DNA of 64,000 nt from a virus (IMGVR_UViG_3300015214_000034:4313-68312), one strand, 5' to 3'. Numbered from the stretch's first letter, positions 39,166 to 45,045 are shown. Numbers and translations are program-made. The notes: generated by a model not told the origin, from the sequence alone.

Positions 39166-39311
39166 AGCCCGGCCTCCTGATCTGGTAGCCTTGTATCGCA
39201 GGAGGGGCTTTCGGTCACGTCTCCAGAATCGAAACCGGCCGCACCCCGAAGGACGCGGCCGGCCGGATCATTCCGAGAGCGAGGCCCTTGTATCAGGCCC
39301 CGGGTTGATTG

Positions 39312-39725
39312 TCACGCCGCCGTGAGGTCGCCGGAGACATTCCAAGTGTTCGCCGCGACCTTGGTGCAGACGACGCGGCCCTTGGCGATCACGACAGCGG
39401 TGGTGCTGCCCTTTTTCTCCATGGTCGCGCCAGCGCCGGCCTGCGCGGTCAGCGCGCCGGCACCCTGCGCGATCACCGAGAACGACGATCCGATGGGAAA
39501 CGCGACGGCGCTGTCCTGCGGGAGGGTCAGCGTCTGGGCACCGGCATTGGTGCGCAGGATCGTCTTGCCGACATCGGTCAGCGCCGGGATATAATCGGCG
39601 GCGGCCGACGTGGTGACGGCGGGTTCCAGCTTGGCAAAGTTGCGCGCGATCAACTTGAACGCGGCGATCAGCCCGCGACCGGAATACTGGCCGGCCTTGG
39701 ACGACAGAGTTTCGAGATGGGCCAT
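39312..39725 (-). CDS. Virion-type beta domain protein, paralogous to C-terminus of 18310-19020
   Basis: TNAGAQTLTLP...FPIG..F.V...GAG.LT..AG.G. Confidence 0.6.
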   Translation of the reverse strand: MAHLETLSSKAGQYSGRGLIAAFKLIARNFAKLEPAVTTSAAADYIPALTDVGKTILRTNAGAQTLTLPQDSAVAFPIGSSFSVIAQGAGALTAQAGAGATMEKKGSTTAVVIAKGRVVCTKVAANTWNVSGDLTAA

Positions 39726-39900
39726 AGCCTCCTCCTCTGGTTTCCTTGCCGAGCGGGATTGCCCGGCCCGGCTGGCATATCACGACGGCTCTCGGCCGGA
39801 TATAGCGAAGGGCCGGGAGATCGCTCCCCCGGCCCCTCTATCCTTTCGCCCTTCACATCGTCCGGGCAAGGGCGGGTCGCCCTGCGGGAATTAGGTCAGA

Positions 39901-40161
39901 TCAGCCGCCGCGCGAGGCGGCGCGCTTGCGGTGGCCGGCTTCGTGTCGGAGCGAGTTCTGGAGCGCGGCGTCGAACGGCGCGCGGGTCATGTTCATGGCC
40001 GGGCCGGGGACGGCCAGGCGCGGCGCGCGCAGGGCGGTCGCCGGGACGAACAGGCCGTAGATGAAGGCGACCCCGCGCTCCAGCGCCGAGACGGCGGCGA
40101 GCGGCGCGGCTGCGATCAGGGACAGGGCGGCGGCGAAGAATGGGCGGTAACGCAGAACCAT
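39901..40161 (-). CDS. Small hypothetical protein
   Basis: AAGGAGG RBS; hydrophobic N-half. Confidence 0.45.
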   Translation of the reverse strand: MVLRYRPFFAAALSLIAAAPLAAVSALERGVAFIYGLFVPATALRAPRLAVPGPAMNMTRAPFDAALQNSLRHEAGHRKRAASRGG

Positions 40162-40289
40162 GGGTTTCCTCCTTGGCTGTCCGATAGTGGACCCGGGCAA
40201 GGTGCGCCGATGGCAGCGGGCGGTCAACGGAAAAGGGCGAGGCCATTGCTGACCCCGCCCTGCGACCCGGCGCGTTGATCGCGCTGCGG

Positions 40290-40481
40290 CTAACTGATTC
40301 CAAGCCTCTCTTGCCGCTCTCTGATCGCGGTTGCAACAGGCCCCGGAACAGGCACCTGTCCCGAGGCCCATCGCCGAACCGACGACGCATCGACGCCAAG
40401 CCAATCGGCCAGCCGGGTCTGCCACCCATGCTTGGGCGGGAACAGTGCCCGGCCGGCCTCCTTGAATTGATCAGCGGTCAC
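40290..40481 (-). CDS. Small XRE/Cro-like HTH protein coupled to TROVE gene
   Basis: WQTRLADWLGVDASSVRRWASG. Confidence 0.75.
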   Translation of the reverse strand: MTADQFKEAGRALFPPKHGWQTRLADWLGVDASSVRRWASGQVPVPGPVATAIRERQERLGIS

Positions 40482-41787
40482 GCGCCTCGCTTTCGTGGAC
40501 GAATCGGAGGACGTTCTCGCTGAAACCGTCGATGCGCGTCCAGTCCCCGTAGCCGACGCCGTTGCGATAGCTGGCCACGTTGATCATGTAGCCGCGCGCG
40601 CCCTCGCGGGGACCGCCGACGCGATCATGGGACTGCTCGTCCGTGATCACGATCATCCGGTCATAGCGGGTGCGGAGATTGACCTCCGCAATCGCGTGCC
40701 CGAGGCGGGTGCCGCCATGCGGCTGCGAGCGGCGGATCGCATCGACGCCAGCCATGCCACGACGCGGGGGAACCTCCTTCACGTCATTGGAGAAGCTGAA
40801 CACCCGGACATCGCCGTGGATGATCGAACCGAGGGCGCAGGCCGCGTCCATGCGGGTCAGATCAGACTTGGCCGACAACTTGTCGTCCATCGAACCGCTG
40901 ACATCGACCAGCACCACGGTCTTGCCCGGCAGGACCGGCATGTCCTCGACCGCCGCGCACAGCGCCTCGTCCAGCGCCGGCTCGAACTGCGGTGCAGCCC
41001 GGGCAGCGGCGATGTAGCGGAACGGCAGGACATAGCGCGCACCCTTGCGGGCGATGATCGCCTGCTTGACCAGATCGGAGTCGACGCCGACCTCGGCCAT
41101 CTTTCGCAGGTTGCGGATCAGGGCCATGTAGCCGAGCCGGCCTTCGCTGATCAGCCGCGTGAACGCCTCGGCCTTGTCGGCCCCGCCCGAAAGCGCGACC
41201 TCCCAAGTGTCCGGCGACGGCAACTCGCCAGCAATGAGCGCCTTCCACATCGCGGCCTGCTCGTCGTCCTTCGGCTTCGGGTGAACGAGGCGCAGGACAT
41301 CGCGCAGCCGCACGGTGGTCGCGCGGTCATACTTGGCAAGCTGGTAGGCGTCGAACTGGCCGAACGCGAGGGCAAGGCCCTTCTTCATCGCGGCCGGGAT
41401 GGGGCGCTTTCCGTCCTTCCACAGCATGGCCAGCAACTCGCCCATTTCATCGGCGCGGCGCACGACGGCCGGATAGTCGTCGGGGCGCAGCGCGGAGATC
41501 TGGCCGGCACGAGCCAGTCCGGCGATCAGCCACAGCGGGGCGTGGCGCAGGTTCATCTGGCTGCGGGCCTCGATCGCCAGCGCGGCGACATCGGCCGGCG
41601 CGGCCTTGCTGACCAGATCGGCGATGCGGTCGGCGATGGCGACCCCGCCCTCATAGAACTGGTCCTCCCACAGGAGGCACGACGCGACAGCGCGGCGCAG
41701 TTCAGCGGCGGCGTTCTTCGGGGGGATGCCAGGCGCGCCCTCGTGGGTGCGGGCGGTGTTGACGGGCTTGGTGTTCAATCGAGCCAT
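40471..41787 (-). CDS. rsr: Ro60/Rsr-like TROVE + vWA RNA-binding protein
   Basis: LRRAVASCLLWEDQFYE; MNLRHAP; RADE; YQLAKY; TWEVALS; LGYMALIRNLR; vWA MIDAS VLVDVSGSM and IVITDEQ; CCCACCAAGGAGA RBS. Confidence 0.93.
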   Translation of the reverse strand: MARLNTKPVNTARTHEGAPGIPPKNAAAELRRAVASCLLWEDQFYEGGVAIADRIADLVSKAAPADVAALAIEARSQMNLRHAPLWLIAGLARAGQISALRPDDYPAVVRRADEMGELLAMLWKDGKRPIPAAMKKGLALAFGQFDAYQLAKYDRATTVRLRDVLRLVHPKPKDDEQAAMWKALIAGELPSPDTWEVALSGGADKAEAFTRLISEGRLGYMALIRNLRKMAEVGVDSDLVKQAIIARKGARYVLPFRYIAAARAAPQFEPALDEALCAAVEDMPVLPGKTVVLVDVSGSMDDKLSAKSDLTRMDAACALGSIIHGDVRVFSFSNDVKEVPPRRGMAGVDAIRRSQPHGGTRLGHAIAEVNLRTRYDRMIVITDEQSHDRVGGPREGARGYMINVASYRNGVGYGDWTRIDGFSENVLRFVHESEARDR

Positions 41788-41828
41788 GATGGCGTTCTCC
41801 TTGGTGGGCAGCGGCGGCCACAAGGGAA

Positions 41829-41908
41829 GCGGGGAATGGTCGGGAACGGAGTGCCGGGCGTTACCCGGACGTTTGCGAAACGAAGTATCCGTTGTCCTAC
41901 ACCACCGC
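41829..41908 (-). ncRNA. Short Y-RNA-like unit 1 (no tRNA domain), immediately 5' of rsr
   Basis: GCGG-TGGTGTAG-GACAACGGA-TACTTCG-...-TCCGTT-CCCGACC-ATTCC-CCGC; shares conserved blocks with units 2-4. Confidence 0.7.
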
Positions 41909-41950
41909 CGCCCATGAGGCCGTCGCCGGGTTTGCGGACATCGCCGATCA

Positions 41951-42090
41951 GGGTCGCGAGGGAAACAAGTCGAAGGCGGTCCTATGTCGGTTGCTCTACC
42001 CGCTGAGCTACCCCGGCGAACCGGGGGCTGGATTCGAACCAGCGACCTACTGATTATCGAAGTATCCGCATTCTACACCACTCGCGACCC
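41951..42090 (-). ncRNA. yrlA: YrlA-like Y RNA unit 2 with permuted tRNA-Thr-like domain
   Basis: 10-bp terminal stem GGGTCGCGAG/CTCGCGACCC; T arm GCTGG-TTCGAAT-CCAGC; acceptor CCCCGG-TTCG-CCGGGG; D arm TAGCTCAGCGGGTAGAGC. Confidence 0.88.
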
Positions 42091-42133
42091 GGAACGACGA
42101 TGCCCAGATCGTCCACCCAAGGTGCGCAGGCAA

Positions 42134-42273
42134 GGACCGCGAGGAATAGGCGGCTCCTGAACGTGAAGCGTCCTAACCACTAGACGACCAAGTGCCGAGG
42201 CCCTTGGGCGGGATTCGAACCCGCGTTTCTCGCTCCAGATGCGAAGTAGCAGAAGCCTGCACCATCGCGGTCC
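42134..42273 (-). ncRNA. yrlA: YrlA-like Y RNA unit 3 with permuted tRNA-Glu/Asp-like domain
   Basis: 9-bp terminal stem GGACCGCGA/TCGCGGTCC; T arm GCGGG-TTCGAAT-CCCGC; acceptor CCAAG...CTTGG closed by a loop; D arm TCGTCTAGTGGTTAGGACG. Confidence 0.88.
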
Positions 42274-42275
42274 AT

Positions 42276-42355
42276 GCCTGCCCGGGAAACTGGCGGATGC
42301 GGCGTCTTTCCGAGTTACAAAGTCGATGAAACCGCGTCCTGCACCACGGGCAGGC
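42276..42355 (-). ncRNA. Short Y-RNA-like unit 4 (no tRNA domain), first in array
   Basis: 9-bp terminal stem GCCTGCCCG/CGGGCAGGC; TGGTGCAG, TTCATCGA and TTTCC blocks. Confidence 0.72.
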
Positions 42356-42360
42356 GTCGG

Positions 42361-42388
42361 CAAATAGCGCATTGTGCGCGGTTTGCAA
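42361..42388 (-). promoter_or_regulatory. Sigma70-like promoter for Y RNA-rsr operon
   Basis: TTGCAA-N16-TATTTG ending 5 nt upstream of the 5' G of unit 4. Confidence 0.55.
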
Positions 42389-42454: not shown

Positions 42455-42529
42455 TGGTTGCAGAGGAGGGATTCGAACCCCCGGCCTGTGGATTATGAGA
42501 CCACCGAGCTACCGCTGCTCTACCCTGCA
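42455..42529 (-). tRNA. tRNA with CAT anticodon (fMet-like scaffold, atypical)
   Basis: TGCAGGGTAGAGCAGCGGTAGCTCGGTGGT-CTCATAA-TCCACAGGCCGGGGGTTCGAATCCCTCCTCTGCA-A-CCA; full cloverleaf with encoded CCA. Confidence 0.92.
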
Positions 42530-42899
42530 CCATCGCGAGGGCGATGGGGGTATCCGGTCCATTCGCCCGAAGGCTGCGCCCGGCTCGATCCATCGCCCTG
42601 TCGCCTTCGTGGACATTTTCGGGGACCGTCTTGAAGGCGCAAGTCATCCAGTCCCGCGCTGATGGTTGCCGCGATCTGGCCAGCTTGGCAAGGGGGAAGG
42701 GTGCCGAGGACAGAATTGATCGGTTGCCCGACCAGCCGGTGCCGACTGTGCGGCGTGGCCAACTCCTTCGCGATTAAGCGGCTTGGCGGATAACCCCACC
42801 GCTCCTCGGCGTGCCAGCGGCCCGGGTCCGTCATGCGCTAGGCGCGTCGTGGGCGGTTGCCGCTGGCGGGTGCCGGCATAGGCGCGTCCTGGCCGGCGA

Positions 42900-44483
42900 T
42901 CAACTCGCTCCCCACGGATCATCATCGGTCGCCGGCTCCGGCGCGTCGTCGATGTCGTCCATTTCCTCGGGCGCGGCGTTCTGGGCGACCGGCACGGTGC
43001 CGACAAGCGCCTGAAATGCCCGGCTGCTGGCGTCCACCTGATCCTTGTATGTGCCGGACGGGAAGTTGCGGAGTTCCTCGATATAGGCGGCGTTCCAGTC
43101 GCCCCGGACCAGATGGACGCGCTCGGCCCCGACCTGTGCGGCAAACGGATCGGCGCGCGTCACCTTGTCGCCCGTCTCCGGGGTGCAGATGAAATTGAAG
43201 CCCATCAGGATCTCCGACACGCGCCACTTGAACGCCTTGCCGCCGAATCCCGGGTCTTGAGGGATGCTGATCTTGACCGTCGGGATTTCGTTCCGGTCAT
43301 TGATCGAAACCTCCTCGATCATCGTCTCGACTTCGGTCGGATTGGCGCGCCGCCGCTCGACGTGGCGGATATAGACATCGCCGCCGACGCGGGTCATCAG
43401 GACGCGCACGGTGTAGGGCGATTTCTTCCGCTTGCTGCCGGCCAAGTCCCACCCGGCCCATGTCACGCCGCCAGCCGGCACATGGTCCACGATGTCGATG
43501 TGCTCGACCTTGAACATGCCGCCTTCGCGCGGGGCCGGCCGCTGCTGATACTGGCCGGCATACATGTAATCGCCGGATTTCTTAACGTCCTCGGTGACGG
43601 CCGGGCCGGCGCGCACCGGGTCCATCAGTTCGCCCTCATAGGAGCGCGGGTCGGCCCAGTCCTTCGTCTTGCCCGGGCGATCTGGGTCGGGGACTTGCAG
43701 CGGTGTCGTGCAGCGCCGGGCCGTCTCGAACTCGTTGGGGATCATCAGATGGACGAACCCATAGTCGCGGGCGAGGATGACGCCGGTCAGATCTTCCTCG
43801 TGCAAGCGCTGCATGACGATCACGATGGCCGACGTTTCCCAGTCATTGATGCGGTTCAGGCCGCCCTCAATGAACTTGCGGGTAGCGTTGTCGCGCTGCG
43901 TCTCGGATTCGGCCCCATCGACGCTGTGCGGATCGTCCACGATCAGGCGGTCGCCGCGCTTGCCGGTCACGGACTTGAAGGCGACGCCGAGACGCGAGCC
44001 GGTGTCGTAATTGCTGAACGACTGCACGCCTTCAGTCTTGAGTTCGACCTCCGGCCACAGCGATTGGAACCATTCGGAGCGGACCAGATCGAGCGTCTTG
44101 CTGGTATCGCGCTTGACGTTGGACAGATCGAACGACGTGCTGACAAAGCGCAGGTGGCGCTTGCCGAGCGGACCCCATTCCCACGCCTGCCACATCACCG
44201 AGACGATGGTCGATTTCGACGAGCCGGGCGGCACGTTGATGATCAGACGCGGTTTCAGCTTGCCCCGGCTGATCGCCTCCAGATGGTCGCACATGGCTTG
44301 CATGTGCCAGTTCCAGCGCAGCCGCGTGCCCGGCTCGATGACCTTCCACGCTTCCTGCACGAACTCGGCGAACGACTGACAGCGGCGGCGGACGCCATCG
44401 GCATCGGCCCGGGCCTCGTCCAGCATCGCGGCCTCTTGCCGGCGCGCGATCTCCTCCCGGTAGAACTTGGTTGAGAGCGCCAT
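42900..44483 (-). CDS. terL: Terminase large subunit
   Basis: LIINVPPGSSKST Walker A; LIVDDP Walker B; YQQRP; WDLA; FPSGTYKDQVDA. Confidence 0.95.
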   Translation of the reverse strand: MALSTKFYREEIARRQEAAMLDEARADADGVRRRCQSFAEFVQEAWKVIEPGTRLRWNWHMQAMCDHLEAISRGKLKPRLIINVPPGSSKSTIVSVMWQAWEWGPLGKRHLRFVSTSFDLSNVKRDTSKTLDLVRSEWFQSLWPEVELKTEGVQSFSNYDTGSRLGVAFKSVTGKRGDRLIVDDPHSVDGAESETQRDNATRKFIEGGLNRINDWETSAIVIVMQRLHEEDLTGVILARDYGFVHLMIPNEFETARRCTTPLQVPDPDRPGKTKDWADPRSYEGELMDPVRAGPAVTEDVKKSGDYMYAGQYQQRPAPREGGMFKVEHIDIVDHVPAGGVTWAGWDLAGSKRKKSPYTVRVLMTRVGGDVYIRHVERRRANPTEVETMIEEVSINDRNEIPTVKISIPQDPGFGGKAFKWRVSEILMGFNFICTPETGDKVTRADPFAAQVGAERVHLVRGDWNAAYIEELRNFPSGTYKDQVDASSRAFQALVGTVPVAQNAAPEEMDDIDDAPEPATDDDPWGAS

Positions 44484-44514
44484 CGGCTCCCGGATCAGGG
44501 TCGCGCCCTGATCG

Positions 44515-45045
44515 TCAGTCGTCAGCGCTGCCATCGACAATCTCGTCGGGGTCCAGCCCCTCGGCGAGCGCAGCGAGGCGGCCATACTCGGCAAGCTGTT
44601 CGTCGGTCAGGCGCGACAGATCGGGGGCAGGGCCGCCGAACGGCTGGCGAGCCTTGTCGCCGACTTCCACCTTGGTCGTCCAGCCGCCAAGCCGGGCCAG
44701 GATGAACTTCTGCGCGTCCAGATCGCCCTTCGCCGTCTCGCTTTCCGCGTTCAGGGCGCGGTTGATCACCTGCGAGCCGACGCTGGCCAGCATTTCGGCT
44801 CGGCCGAGTTCCAGATCATCGGAGAAGTGCCGGCGCAGAGTGTCGCGGCTGACGCCGATCAGGCGGGCGATGTAGTGCTCGCCATGGACCGGGAAGGTCT
44901 TGGCATAGGTGCGGACCTTGAGCCGCTGCTCCTCGGTCGGCACGAACGGCGGGTTGCCGAACTGCCCCTTGGGCGCGCCTCGGGCATCATCGTCCCGCGT
45001 CTTCTGGTTGTGCGCGGTGAGGGGCTTTTCTGGCGTGGTGGACAT
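44515..45045 (-). CDS. terS: Terminase small subunit
   Basis: HTH IARLIGVSRDTLRRHF..EL..G; directly upstream of terL. Confidence 0.85.
   Translation of the reverse strand: MSTTPEKPLTAHNQKTRDDDARGAPKGQFGNPPFVPTEEQRLKVRTYAKTFPVHGEHYIARLIGVSRDTLRRHFSDDLELGRAEMLASVGSQVINRALNAESETAKGDLDAQKFILARLGGWTTKVEVGDKARQPFGGPAPDLSRLTDEQLAEYGRLAALAEGLDPDEIVDGSADD

What the first reader, a model, noticed from the sequence alone, without database searches (positions are those of the whole stretch)
41951..42273. Two circularly permuted tRNA mimics of different tRNA origin
Seen: order is 3' anticodon strand, T arm, loop-closed acceptor stem, D arm, 5' anticodon strand, so there is no anticodon loop and no free CCA end. 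Unit 2 has TAGCTCAG..GGTAGAGCAACCGAC and TAATCAGTAGGTC, resembling bacterial tRNA-Thr. Unit 3 has TCGTCTAGTGGTTAGGACG, a Glu/Asp-type D arm, with CTTCA/TGGAG pairing. Known: YrlA RNAs have this T-acceptor-D topology. Inference: two different tRNAs were independently grafted on one Ro-binding module, giving elbow mimics that could decoy tRNA-recognising toxins, sensors or modification enzymes without being cleavable at an anticodon.
Basis: partly seen in the sequence, partly recalled or inferred. Interest (0 to 1): 0.8.

Follow-up and report, generated by a model that had tools for sequence, protein, structure and literature searches.

The report
Phage Y RNAs with two tRNA bodies
Just upstream of a phage's Ro60 gene lie two small RNA genes shaped like back-to-front tRNAs: one is the known YrlA type, and the other carries the body of a glutamate tRNA plus an anticodon-like arm, a variant I found in no paper I could read and which appears to arise by swapping the tRNA core on a constant Ro60-docking scaffold.

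Summary
Four tandem Y-RNA units sit between a tRNA-Met gene and a Ro60 (TROVE+VWA) gene. Units 2 (42090-41951) and 3 (42273-42134) each run T arm, loop-closed acceptor stem, D arm.

- **Unit 2** is a canonical YrlA with an open anticodon stem. Its "tRNA-Thr" label is not supported, because its core matches many isotypes.
- **Unit 3** has a tRNA-Glu core. All 9 near-matches of its 19-nt D segment in 121 alphaproteobacterial genomes lie in tRNA-Glu genes, and it shares their 4-nt AAAC variable loop.
The 5' strand of the stem is split, and the 7-nt loop follows tRNA rules (U33, purine 37, 36-37 coupling).

In relatives, Glu-type cores are scattered on the Ro60 tree. One locus shows a clean swap of the variable-loop-to-D-arm cassette on an unchanged scaffold, which supports "grafting".

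Function is inferred only: Ro60-tethered tRNA replicas that dock or titrate tRNA-binding factors. I class this as a new variant of a known kind. Earlier notes of this scan describe other tRNA-shaped Y RNAs beside phage Ro60 on other DNA; none of those shown mentions this Glu-type core.

The parts
41951..42090 (-). Y RNA unit 2: canonical YrlA-type RNA (basal stem 42090-42081 / 41960-41951; UGGUGUAG 42080-42073; UACUUCG motif 42064-42058)
   Evidence: Rfam RF02553 full-length match, 46.9 bits. Model R1: 66.8 bits, E about 5e-16. Sequence read.
41987..42053 (-). Unit 2 tRNA-like domain: 39-43 strand UCAGU (42053-42049), V loop AGGUC (42048-42044), T arm (42043-42027), acceptor hairpin with UUCG loop (42026-42011), UA, D arm GCUC-AGCGGGUA-GAGC (42008-41993), A26, 27-31 strand ACCGA (41991-41987). 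The anticodon stem is open, with no loop.
   Evidence: classed 'open'. Isotype non-specific.
42134..42273 (-). Y RNA unit 3: YrlA-like RNA with a tRNA-Glu-type core (basal stem 42273-42265 / 42142-42134; UGGUGCAG 42264-42257; helix P2 42256-42250 / 42159-42153)
   Evidence: Model R1: 155.5 bits (this unit is in the seed). Orthologues in L001, L002, L004, L065, L077 and L083. Rfam YrlA gives only a partial 19.2 bits.
42229..42242 (-). Unit 3 anticodon-arm mimic: GC (42242-42241), 7-nt loop AUCUGGA (42240-42234), GCGAG (42233-42229). GAG pairs with CUU at 42168-42166 (positions 27-29), so the 5' strand of the stem is split.
   Evidence: MFE hairpin. Split-stem pairs 97% paired against 85% in shuffles, 0/500. 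27/43 and 28/42 are 93-95% paired against 54-63%, 0/2000. Helices 4-5.
42166..42228 (-). Unit 3 tRNA-Glu-type core: V loop AAAC (42228-42225), T arm (42224-42208), acceptor hairpin with CUCG loop (42207-42188), UC, D arm GUCU-AGUGGUUA-GGAC (42185-42170), G26 (42169), CUU (42168-42166)
   Evidence: D segment scores 15 for tRNA-Glu against 7 for the next isotype. 9/9 genomic near-matches lie in tRNA-Glu genes. The AAAC V loop is shared with alphaproteobacterial tRNA-Glu.
42276..42355 (-). Y RNA unit 4: same Ro-binding scaffold, no tRNA-like domain (YrlB-like)
   Evidence: Sequence read. Conserved in L001 and L002 with a covarying inner stem.
41824..41913 (-). Y RNA unit 1: short scaffold-only unit in the Ro60 leader, absent from L001 and L002
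   Evidence: Model R1: 28 bits, E 4.5e-5. Sequence comparison.
40471..41787 (-). Ro60 (Rsr) orthologue, TROVE + VWA, 438 aa
   Evidence: Pfam TROVE 5e-18 and VWA_2. PDB 9KOP/9L5Y, Thermus phage phiLo Ro60, E 9e-30 over residues 12-432. PHROG 850.
42361..42388 (-). Promoter-like TTGCAA-N16-TATTTG upstream of unit 4
   Evidence: Read from the sequence. Conserved in L002, variant in L001. Not called by the strict consensus scan.
42455..42529 (-). tRNA-Met (CAU), the only true tRNA of the phage, at the head of the array
   Evidence: Rfam tRNA 62.8 bits and ARAGORN.

Best explanation
The region holds two of four tandem Y RNA genes that precede a phage Ro60 gene. All four share one Ro60-docking scaffold: 5' UGGUG(U/C)AG, an inner helix and a UACUUCG-type motif (UUCAUCG in unit 4), with a 3' ...UUCC strand.

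Unit 2 is an ordinary YrlA. It is a tRNA elbow (T arm, closed acceptor, D arm) whose anticodon stem is formed by the two strands that lead to the Ro60 site, so it has no loop.

Unit 3 is a variant in which the stretch from variable loop to D arm has the sequence of tRNA-Glu: the D arm with a U13-G22 pair, G26, and the 4-nt AAAC variable loop. It also keeps a full anticodon-arm mimic. Positions 27-29 come from the strand after the D arm. Positions 30-31, the 7-nt loop and positions 39-43 come from the incoming 5' strand. The molecule is therefore a complete tRNA cloverleaf, circularly permuted at a nick in the anticodon stem, with the Ro60 scaffold leaving from that nick.

Comparison with relatives indicates that such cores are exchanged as cassettes on a constant scaffold.

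Inferred, not shown: Ro60 binds the scaffold, and each tRNA replica docks or titrates a different tRNA-binding partner. Candidates are modification enzymes, a synthetase, a tRNA nuclease, or PNPase as in known Ro60-Y RNA-PNPase complexes. That would give one phage Ro60 two specificities.
For: - Context: TROVE+VWA gene directly downstream on the same strand, in a complete phage genome.
- Unit 2: Rfam YrlA full-length match, and a hit by a model built without it.
- Structure: 93% of cells paired against 61% in shuffles, covariation 0.78 against 0.19, over 67 units.
- tRNA-Glu core: D segment scores 15 against 7 for the next isotype in a 44-tRNA panel. 9/9 genomic near-matches lie in tRNA-Glu genes, one of them exact. 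The AAAC V loop and a GCGGG/CCCGC T stem also occur in alphaproteobacterial tRNA-Glu.
- Anticodon arm: 27/43 and 28/42 are paired in 93-95% of 96 units against 54-63% in shuffles. Split-stem model 97% against 85%. Loops have U33 in 88% and purine 37 in 89%.
- 36-37 coupling: in 62 distinct loops U36 goes with A37 19:0 and G36 with G37 17:4, Fisher 7e-8. The host-type tRNA panel shows the same rule.
- Re-permutation: 91/96 re-permuted units are called tRNAs by ARAGORN, 0/96 shuffled controls.
- Cassette swap: L077 scaffold 86-89% identical, core 55-61%. The Glu type is scattered on the Ro60 tree, and scaffolds cluster by locus, not by core type.
- Literature: YrlA topology and the Ro60-Y RNA-PNPase complex (PMC4201824; 10.1101/312249; PMC12135203).
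Against: - There are no expression, processing, Ro60-binding or modification data for this phage.
- Both units fall below Rfam's gathering score.
- The covariation alignment A4 is fitted to the model, and the Glu-type set has only 7 sequences.
- The two U's of the conserved UACUUCG motif could also pair with 42-43 (a full local hairpin), so the exact nick position in unit 3 is ambiguous.
- Chen et al. 2014 drew a stem-loop in this place as a 'variable arm', so the hairpin itself is not new.
- The anticodon-like loop of unit 3 (CUG) does not match its Glu body.
- The tree is a FastTree with long branches, and flanks of 1.5 kb may have missed units. Ancient paralogy with many losses is therefore not excluded.
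- The functional part is inference only.
Confidence: 0.8

Rival explanations
1. Unit 3 is an old YrlA paralogue that drifted or converged towards tRNA-Glu features under selection by a partner. No tRNA-Glu sequence was ever grafted.
For: The acceptor stem and anticodon arm of unit 3 are not Glu-like. Its T arm is only moderately Glu-specific. Scatter on the Ro60 tree could reflect losses or units missed in short flanks.
Against: The 19-nt D segment is 17-19/19 identical to real tRNA-Glu genes and co-occurs with the 4-nt AAAC V loop. L077 shows a sharp boundary between a conserved scaffold and a replaced core. A Pro-type unit (L034) matches tRNA-Pro in D arm, T arm and loop together.
Confidence: 0.15
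2. One reading: CUUCA after the D arm pairs with UGGAG, an 8-nt variable region follows, and there is no anticodon loop.
For: In the window sequence the five pairs are all possible.
Against: Across the 7 Glu-type units this pairing is at shuffle level (58.8% against 57.9%), with no covariation. The alternative pairing is supported. An 8-nt variable loop does not fit the tRNA-Glu type.
Confidence: 0.07
3. Unit 3 is a circularly permuted tRNA gene that is processed (acceptor loop opened, scaffold excised and ends ligated) into a working tRNA, as in some algae and archaea.
For: After in-silico re-permutation it is called a tRNA. M. smegmatis YrlA is cut by RNase P and gains CCA (PMC4201824).
Against: The phage encodes no RtcB. 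The Glu body carries a CUG loop. The acceptor helix has a mismatch and a stable tetraloop cap. The scaffold is the conserved Ro60 module shared with tRNA-less units.
Confidence: 0.03
4. The tRNA-like pieces are decayed remnants of a phage tRNA cluster, or chance matches, with no function.
For: True tRNA genes lie next to the array here and in L002.
Against: The reversed arm order is conserved in over 150 units beside Ro60 genes, with compensatory changes in every helix. Shuffled controls give nothing.
Confidence: 0.01

Closest known systems
YrlA (Y RNA-like A; Rfam RF02553; Chen et al. 2014, PMC4201824; structure in Wang et al. 2018, bioRxiv 10.1101/312249)
   Same: Encoded beside and on the same strand as Ro60. 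Order is T arm, loop-closed acceptor stem, D arm. The nucleotides for tRNA tertiary contacts are present (U8, A14, G18G19, UUC, A58, G15:C48). Found in phages too. Often has a stem-loop 5' of the T arm. Unit 2 has the near-invariant GCUC/GAGC D stem.
   Different: Unit 3 has a GUCU/GGAC tRNA-Glu D arm and a 4-nt V loop where YrlA D/T stems are described as nearly invariant. The 5' stem-loop sits in the anticodon-arm position, carries anticodon-loop signatures, and its last nucleotides pair with the strand after the D arm (it was drawn as a 'V arm' in 2014). Two different cores sit in one array. The Ro motif is GGUG(U/C)AG rather than GNCGAA(N)G. Both units are below Rfam's gathering score.
Bacterial tRNA-Glu
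   Same: D arm, including the U13-G22 pair (17-19 of 19 nt); G26; 4-nt variable loop AAAC; T stem as in some alphaproteobacterial tRNA-Glu.
   Different: The arm order is permuted, the acceptor stem is closed by a tetraloop and unrelated in sequence, there is no CCA, and the anticodon-like loop reads CUG, not UUC/CUC.
Thermus phage phiLo Ro60 with Yrl1/Yrl2 (PMC12135203)
   Same: A phage Ro60 (best solved relative) with several Y-like RNAs just upstream. That paper reports a ternary complex with host PNPase.
   Different: The text search of that paper found no mention of a tRNA-like domain in Yrl1/Yrl2. Here two of four units carry one.
D. radiodurans Yrn1 and the tRNA-dimer origin model (Sim and Wolin 2018, as cited in 10.1101/312249)
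   Same: A Y RNA with tRNA-derived arms, including a possible anticodon arm. The model predicts that an anticodon arm of the upstream tRNA lies just 5' of the T arm.
   Different: Yrn1 has the opposite arm order and a 6-nt loop. Here both halves of the unit 3 core are Glu-type, and the evidence points to later cassette exchange rather than one founding event.
Circularly permuted tRNA genes of Cyanidioschyzon and some archaea
   Same: Closed acceptor loop and termini in the anticodon region.
   Different: Those are processed into working tRNAs. Nothing here suggests that (no ligase gene, mismatched loop and body, Ro60 scaffold).

Membership tests
YrlA (RF02553) | Encoded within a few kb of, and on the same strand as, a Ro60/TROVE gene | tested here: met
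   Units lie 160-490 nt upstream of the TROVE+VWA ORF on the minus strand.
YrlA (RF02553) | Order T arm - loop-closed acceptor stem - D arm inside a stem that leads to the Ro60 site | tested here: met
   Both units. Helices covary in 67 relatives.
YrlA (RF02553) | Score at or above Rfam's gathering threshold (69 bits) | tested here: not met
   Unit 2: 46.9 bits over the full length. Unit 3: 19.2 bits, partial.
YrlA (RF02553) | Nearly invariant D and T stem sequences (GCUC/GAGC D stem) | tested here: inconclusive
   Met by unit 2, not met by unit 3 (GUCU/GGAC). 123 of 151 related units are canonical and 28 are not.
YrlA (RF02553) | 5' Ro60-binding motif GNCGAA(N)G | tested here: inconclusive
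   All four units have UGGUG(U/C)AG at that place. It is similar but not the same. Binding was not tested.
YrlA (RF02553) | Absence of an anticodon loop (as in the solved S. Typhimurium YrlA) | tested here: inconclusive
   Unit 2 is open. Unit 3 and 96 of 151 relatives have a 7-nt-loop hairpin there.
YrlA (RF02553) | Bound by Ro60; carries pseudouridine 55 and dihydrouridine | not testable with these tools
   Needs immunoprecipitation and modification mapping.
tRNA-Glu-derived core (unit 3) | D arm, G26 and 4-nt variable loop of tRNA-Glu | tested here: met
   Score 15 against 7 for the next isotype. 9/9 genomic near-matches are tRNA-Glu. AAAC loop shared.
tRNA-Glu-derived core (unit 3) | Glu anticodon and Glu acceptor stem | tested here: not met
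   The loop reads CUG, and the acceptor strands are unrelated to tRNA-Glu.
   D segment ties across six isotypes. The exact V+T match is tRNA-Arg(UCU), and only 1 of 30 loci fetched for near-matches holds a tRNA-Thr at the match.
Bona fide tRNA gene | Arm order acceptor-D-anticodon-T and a free 3' end | tested here: not met
   ARAGORN and Rfam call only tRNA-Met in the window.
Ro60/Rsr protein | TROVE ring plus VWA domain, full length | tested here: met
   Pfam TROVE and VWA_2. Aligns over residues 12-432 with phage phiLo Ro60.

The most novel reading that the evidence does not exclude
Phage and prophage Ro60 particles display complete, isotype-specific tRNA replicas. Examples are a Glu-type body here and a Pro-type in L034, each with an anticodon loop obeying the rules that tRNA-modifying enzymes read. 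The replicas are exchanged as cassettes on a fixed Ro60 handle. The particle would therefore be a programmable bait for isotype-specific tRNA-directed factors (host anticodon nucleases, synthetases or modification enzymes), and the swapping would record an arms race over particular tRNAs.
Probability: 0.2. Interest if true: 0.8.

Novelty: new variant of a known kind. Interest (0 to 1): 0.6.

Why it matters
The field's working idea is that YrlA's nearly invariant D and T stems are read by one unknown, sequence-specific tRNA-binding effector. A co-resident second tRNA-like Y RNA with a tRNA-Glu body, and Pro-type and other bodies in relatives, would mean either that there are several effectors or that the effector distinguishes tRNA types.

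The anticodon-loop signatures make two concrete predictions. One is m1G37 (expected from TrmD, which acts on G36-G37) on unit 3's G36-G37. The other is t6A37 on loops with U36-A37.

The cassette swap also bears on how Y RNAs arise from tRNAs. It suggests repeated exchange with tRNA genes rather than a single founding tRNA dimer. For phage biology, it links Ro60 particles to the current picture of phage tRNAs and tRNA-targeting defences.

Tried and rejected
- Plus-strand reading: nothing is there; all features are on the minus strand.
- Rfam at gathering threshold finds only tRNA-Met. Only the permissive search shows YrlA.
- Nucleotide search of the phage collection finds only tRNA-Met look-alikes, no related array.
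- A two-pair extension of helix P2 (UAC with GUA) is only 61% paired, so I dropped it (helix 3).
- A full 5-bp local hairpin as the conserved form: its outer two pairs show no excess over shuffles.
- Coupling of Pro-type loops to the UUCAAAU T loop: weak (odds ratio 5.5, p 0.03, not corrected for relatedness), so I treat it as a hint only.
- Conserved protein partners: the two ORFs after Ro60 have no Pfam or PHROG hit and recur only in the two nearest relatives. There is no RtcB in the genome.
- The consensus promoter/terminator scan found nothing.
- Two reviews (PMC10870794, PMC6047535) were not held, so I could not check them for prior mention of variant cores.

Full report
**1. What is there**

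The window is most of a complete 68,312-bp phage genome with direct terminal repeats. All features of the finding lie on the minus strand. Reading 5' to 3' on that strand, the order is:
- the large terminase gene (42900-44594);
- a tRNA-Met gene (42529-42455; Rfam 62.8 bits, ARAGORN);
- a promoter-like TTGCAA-N16-TATTTG (42388-42361);
- four tandem RNA units: unit 4 (42355-42276), unit 3 (42273-42134), unit 2 (42090-41951), unit 1 (about 41913-41824);
- a 438-codon gene (41787-40471);
- portal and Mu-F-like head genes.

The 438-codon gene encodes a Ro60 orthologue. It has TROVE and VWA domains. It aligns over residues 12-432 with the solved Ro60 of Thermus phage phiLo (9KOP/9L5Y, E 9e-30). It falls in PHROG 850, "RNA-binding protein".

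All four units share a scaffold: a basal stem, 5' UGGUG(U/C)AG, an inner helix, a UACUUCG-type motif (UUCAUCG in unit 4), and a 3' strand ending in ...UUCC before the basal stem closes.

**2. Checking the observation**

- a strand equivalent to tRNA positions 39-43;
- a variable loop;
- a T arm with the UUCGAAU loop;
- an acceptor-like helix closed by a tetraloop (UUCG in unit 2, CUCG in unit 3);
- two linker nucleotides;
- a D arm.

The coordinates of each piece are listed under "parts". Neither unit has a free CCA end.

This is not chance:
- Unit 2 matches Rfam's YrlA model from end to end (46.9 bits, E 6e-11 for the genome), though below the curated threshold of 69.
- A covariance model that I built only from unit 3 and its six orthologues finds unit 2 at 66.8 bits (E about 5e-16) and unit 1 at 28 bits.
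- In 67 full-length related units, 93% of all base-pair cells are standard pairs against 61% in shuffles. The covariation score is 0.78 against 0.19, and 0.07-0.13 when partners are slid by one to three columns. Thirty-five of 39 pairs change on both sides. That alignment is fitted to the model, which favours the structure, but the size of the effect and the slid controls make an artefact unlikely.

**3. Relatives**

The Ro60 protein brought in 13 viral loci, then 80 more, and 80 loci from bacterial genomes. The nearest bacterial Ro60s are from Allosphingosinicella (66-68%) and Caulobacteraceae, so the host is probably an alphaproteobacterium.

Nearly every locus has two to six units of the same scaffold directly upstream of Ro60. 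A simple parser anchored on the T arm found 151 distinct units with the order T arm, closed acceptor, D arm. Of the 120 loci with at least one parsed unit, 30 have two or more, and in 19 of those the D stems differ.

**4. Which tRNAs do the cores resemble?**

I took 44 distinct tRNAs from a complete Caulobacter genome that carries a related Ro60 locus.

*Unit 3.*
- Its 19-nt D segment (UC-GUCU-AGUGGUUA-GGAC-G) scores 15 against tRNA-Glu and 7 against the next isotype.
- Searching that 19-mer with at most one mismatch in 121 alphaproteobacterial genomes gave nine hits. All nine lie inside tRNA-Glu genes, and one is exact.
- Those tRNA-Glu genes mostly have the 4-nt variable loop AAAC, as unit 3 does. 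One has the same GCGGG/CCCGC T stem.
- From general knowledge of tRNA-Glu (not tested here): the U11-A24 and U13-G22 pairs with A46 and a missing residue 47 form the "augmented D helix" read by glutamyl-tRNA synthetase. All of these are present in unit 3.
- The acceptor helix and the anticodon-like arm of unit 3 are not Glu-like.

*Unit 2.*
- It has the D arm that defines canonical YrlA (GCUC...GAGC). In the panel this ties with Val, Lys, Phe, Arg, Ala and Thr (15-16 points).
- Its 22-nt variable-loop-plus-T-arm segment is matched exactly by a tRNA-Arg(UCU). With up to two mismatches it also matches tRNAs for Pro, Asn, Met, Lys and Val, and once Thr.

So the two cores are of different type, Glu against generic. 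"Thr" is not a supported label.

**5. The anticodon region**

For unit 2 the description holds. ACCGA after the D arm pairs with UCAGU before the variable loop (one mismatch; four Watson-Crick pairs in L001), and the helix opens into the internal loop that leads to the Ro60 site.

For unit 3 the comparative data say otherwise:
- Instead, in 96 of 151 units the two or three nucleotides just 5' of the variable loop pair with the two or three nucleotides that follow position 26 after the D arm. Positions 27/43 are 93% paired against 63% in shuffles, and 28/42 are 95% against 54% (0 of 2000 shuffles each). Pair types vary: C-G, A-U, G-C, U-A.
- The next two or three positions pair locally with the incoming 5' strand (G-C, C-G, U-A, A-U) and enclose a 7-nt loop (helices 4-5, 59).

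The 5' strand of the anticodon stem is therefore split. Its top comes from the strand after the D arm and its bottom from the strand arriving from the Ro60 scaffold.

In unit 3, CUU (42168-42166) pairs with GAG, GC (42242-42241) pairs with GC, and the loop is AUCUGGA. The two U's of the conserved UACUUCG motif could also pair with 42-43. That gives a full local hairpin, as in the minimum-energy fold. Those pairs show no excess over shuffles, so the exact nick is uncertain in this one sequence.

The loops look like anticodon loops:
- U at the second position in 88%, a purine at the sixth in 89%, and A at the seventh in 78%.
- Among 62 distinct loops, U at position 36 goes with A37 (19 to 0) and G36 with G37 (17 to 4), Fisher p 7e-8. 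The Caulobacter tRNAs show the same rule.
- In real tRNAs these are the contexts of t6A37 and m1G37 (general knowledge).
- When the pieces are re-joined in tRNA order in silico, ARAGORN of 96 units a tRNA and none of 96 shuffled controls. Unit 3 comes out as "tRNA-Gln(CUG)" by its loop, on a Glu body.
- ARAGORN also miscalls several native units as tRNAs.

Chen et al. 2014 noted a less-conserved stem-loop 5' of the T arm in many YrlA RNAs and drew it as a variable arm (PMC4201824, section read). The hairpin itself is therefore known. Its placement as an anticodon arm with a split stem and tRNA-like loop rules is my reading of the data above.

**6. Was the core grafted?**

Seven distinct loci carry a Glu-type unit: the window, L001, L002, L004, L065, L077 and L083. 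All have a 4-nt variable loop.
- On a tree of 168 Ro60 proteins they need five changes, at least four of them forced by well-supported branches. This is a FastTree with some long branches.
- Outside the window's own clade, the scaffolds of Glu-type units are most similar to canonical units of the same or closely related loci, not to other Glu-type units.
- The clearest case is L077. Its Glu-type unit is 86-89% identical to its own canonical unit and to those of L079 and L080 in the scaffold. That includes the Ro motif, inner helix, anticodon-like arm and the strand after the D arm. From the variable loop to the D arm it is only 55-61% identical. The canonical units compared with each other are 89% and 88% in the two parts.

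This is what a cassette replacement looks like. It also explains why loop and body disagree in isotype.

Other core types occur. L034 has a unit matching tRNA-Pro in D arm (18 of 19), T arm (20 of 22) and loop (UUUGGGA). L064 has the same D arm, and several others are unassigned.

Ancient paralogy with many losses remains possible.

**7. How it probably works**

Shown:
- the gene order;
- the folds, by covariation;
- the core types.

Known from the literature:
- Bacterial Y RNAs bind Ro60 through the stem module and use the other end to bind an effector.
- In D. radiodurans and S. Typhimurium the complex includes PNPase.
- The YrlA domain is a substrate for TruB, DusA and in one case RNase P (PMC4201824).
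- The solved domain is a close tRNA mimic, and its conserved D/T stems were proposed to be read by a sequence-specific tRNA-binding effector (10.1101/312249).
- A phage Ro60 with two Y-like RNAs forms a complex with host PNPase (PMC12135203).
- The YrlA domain was proposed to act as a competitive inhibitor of an anticodon nuclease (PMC7790460).

Inferred here: the phage makes Ro60 particles of at least two kinds. One shows the standard YrlA elbow and the other a whole tRNA-Glu-like replica with an anticodon-like loop, and these engage different tRNA-binding partners. I cannot say which partners.

The phage has no RtcB and only one true tRNA. The two genes after Ro60 are not conserved beyond the closest relatives.

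**8. Novelty and verdict**

Known:
- YrlA topology;
- its occurrence in phages;
- several Y RNAs per locus;
- a stem-loop 5' of the T arm;
- the decoy idea.

Not found in the papers I could read (two reviews were not available):
- YrlA-type units whose core is that of a specific other tRNA (Glu, Pro), alongside a canonical unit;
- evidence for cassette exchange;
- the anticodon-loop rules of the 5' hairpin.

Earlier notes of this scan describe other tRNA-shaped Y RNAs beside phage Ro60 on other DNA, with the opposite wiring. I saw one such unit in L008/L009. None of the notes shown mentions a Glu-type core.

I class the finding as a new variant of a known kind, with interest 0.6.

Noticed in passing
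window 42455-42543 (minus strand): The leader and 5' end of tRNA-Met read CGCGAUGGUGCAGG, identical over 14 nt to the start of unit 3 and including the UGGUGCAG Ro-type motif. The leader CGAUGG can pair with the encoded CCA-UCG, extending the acceptor stem by 6 bp. The tRNA has a U1-A72 pair and an initiator-like D arm but lacks the three G-C pairs of initiators. In L002 the motif reads GAUGAUGCAGG.
   Followed up: partly
L008:383-500 and L009:2699-2815: A unit with the same Ro scaffold holds a tRNA-like part in normal order (D arm, anticodon arm with loop CUUGAAA, T arm), with the scaffold taking the place of the acceptor stem. This is the opposite wiring to YrlA, and it sits in the same array as a YrlA-type unit.
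   Followed up: no
L034:1156-1299: A Y unit whose D arm (18/19), variable loop plus T arm (20/22) and 7-nt loop (UUUGGGA) all match tRNA-Pro(UGG) of Caulobacter, making it a near-complete permuted tRNA-Pro on the Ro scaffold. L064:1303-1444 has the same D arm.
   Followed up: partly
L006:2668-2737, L010:2845-2918, L013:2292-2359, L238:1492-1566: ARAGORN calls 'tRNA' genes (Pro, Thr, Arg, Ser) that overlap Y RNA units. Such Y RNAs are probably mis-annotated as tRNAs in public phage and bacterial records.
   Followed up: partly
window 41824-41913 (minus strand): Unit 1, a short scaffold-only unit in the Ro60 leader, is present in the window but absent from the two closest relatives (L001, L002). 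In those, the Ro60 ribosome-binding site follows unit 2 directly.
   Followed up: partly
L001:2100-2500: The 99%-identical relative has an extra open reading frame with HNH-endonuclease-like motifs (read by eye, not searched) inserted between tRNA-Met and the Y array. L002 instead has tRNA-Thr and tRNA-Gly genes there.
   Followed up: no
window 42095-42130 (minus strand): A GACGAU/AUCGUC hairpin without a U tract lies between units 3 and 2 and is conserved in L001 and L002. It may be a processing site rather than a terminator. No terminator-like site was found anywhere in the array.
   Followed up: no
window 39268-40429 (minus strand): The two ORFs after Ro60 (177 and 171 aa) have no Pfam or PHROG match and recur only in L001 and L002.
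   Followed up: partly
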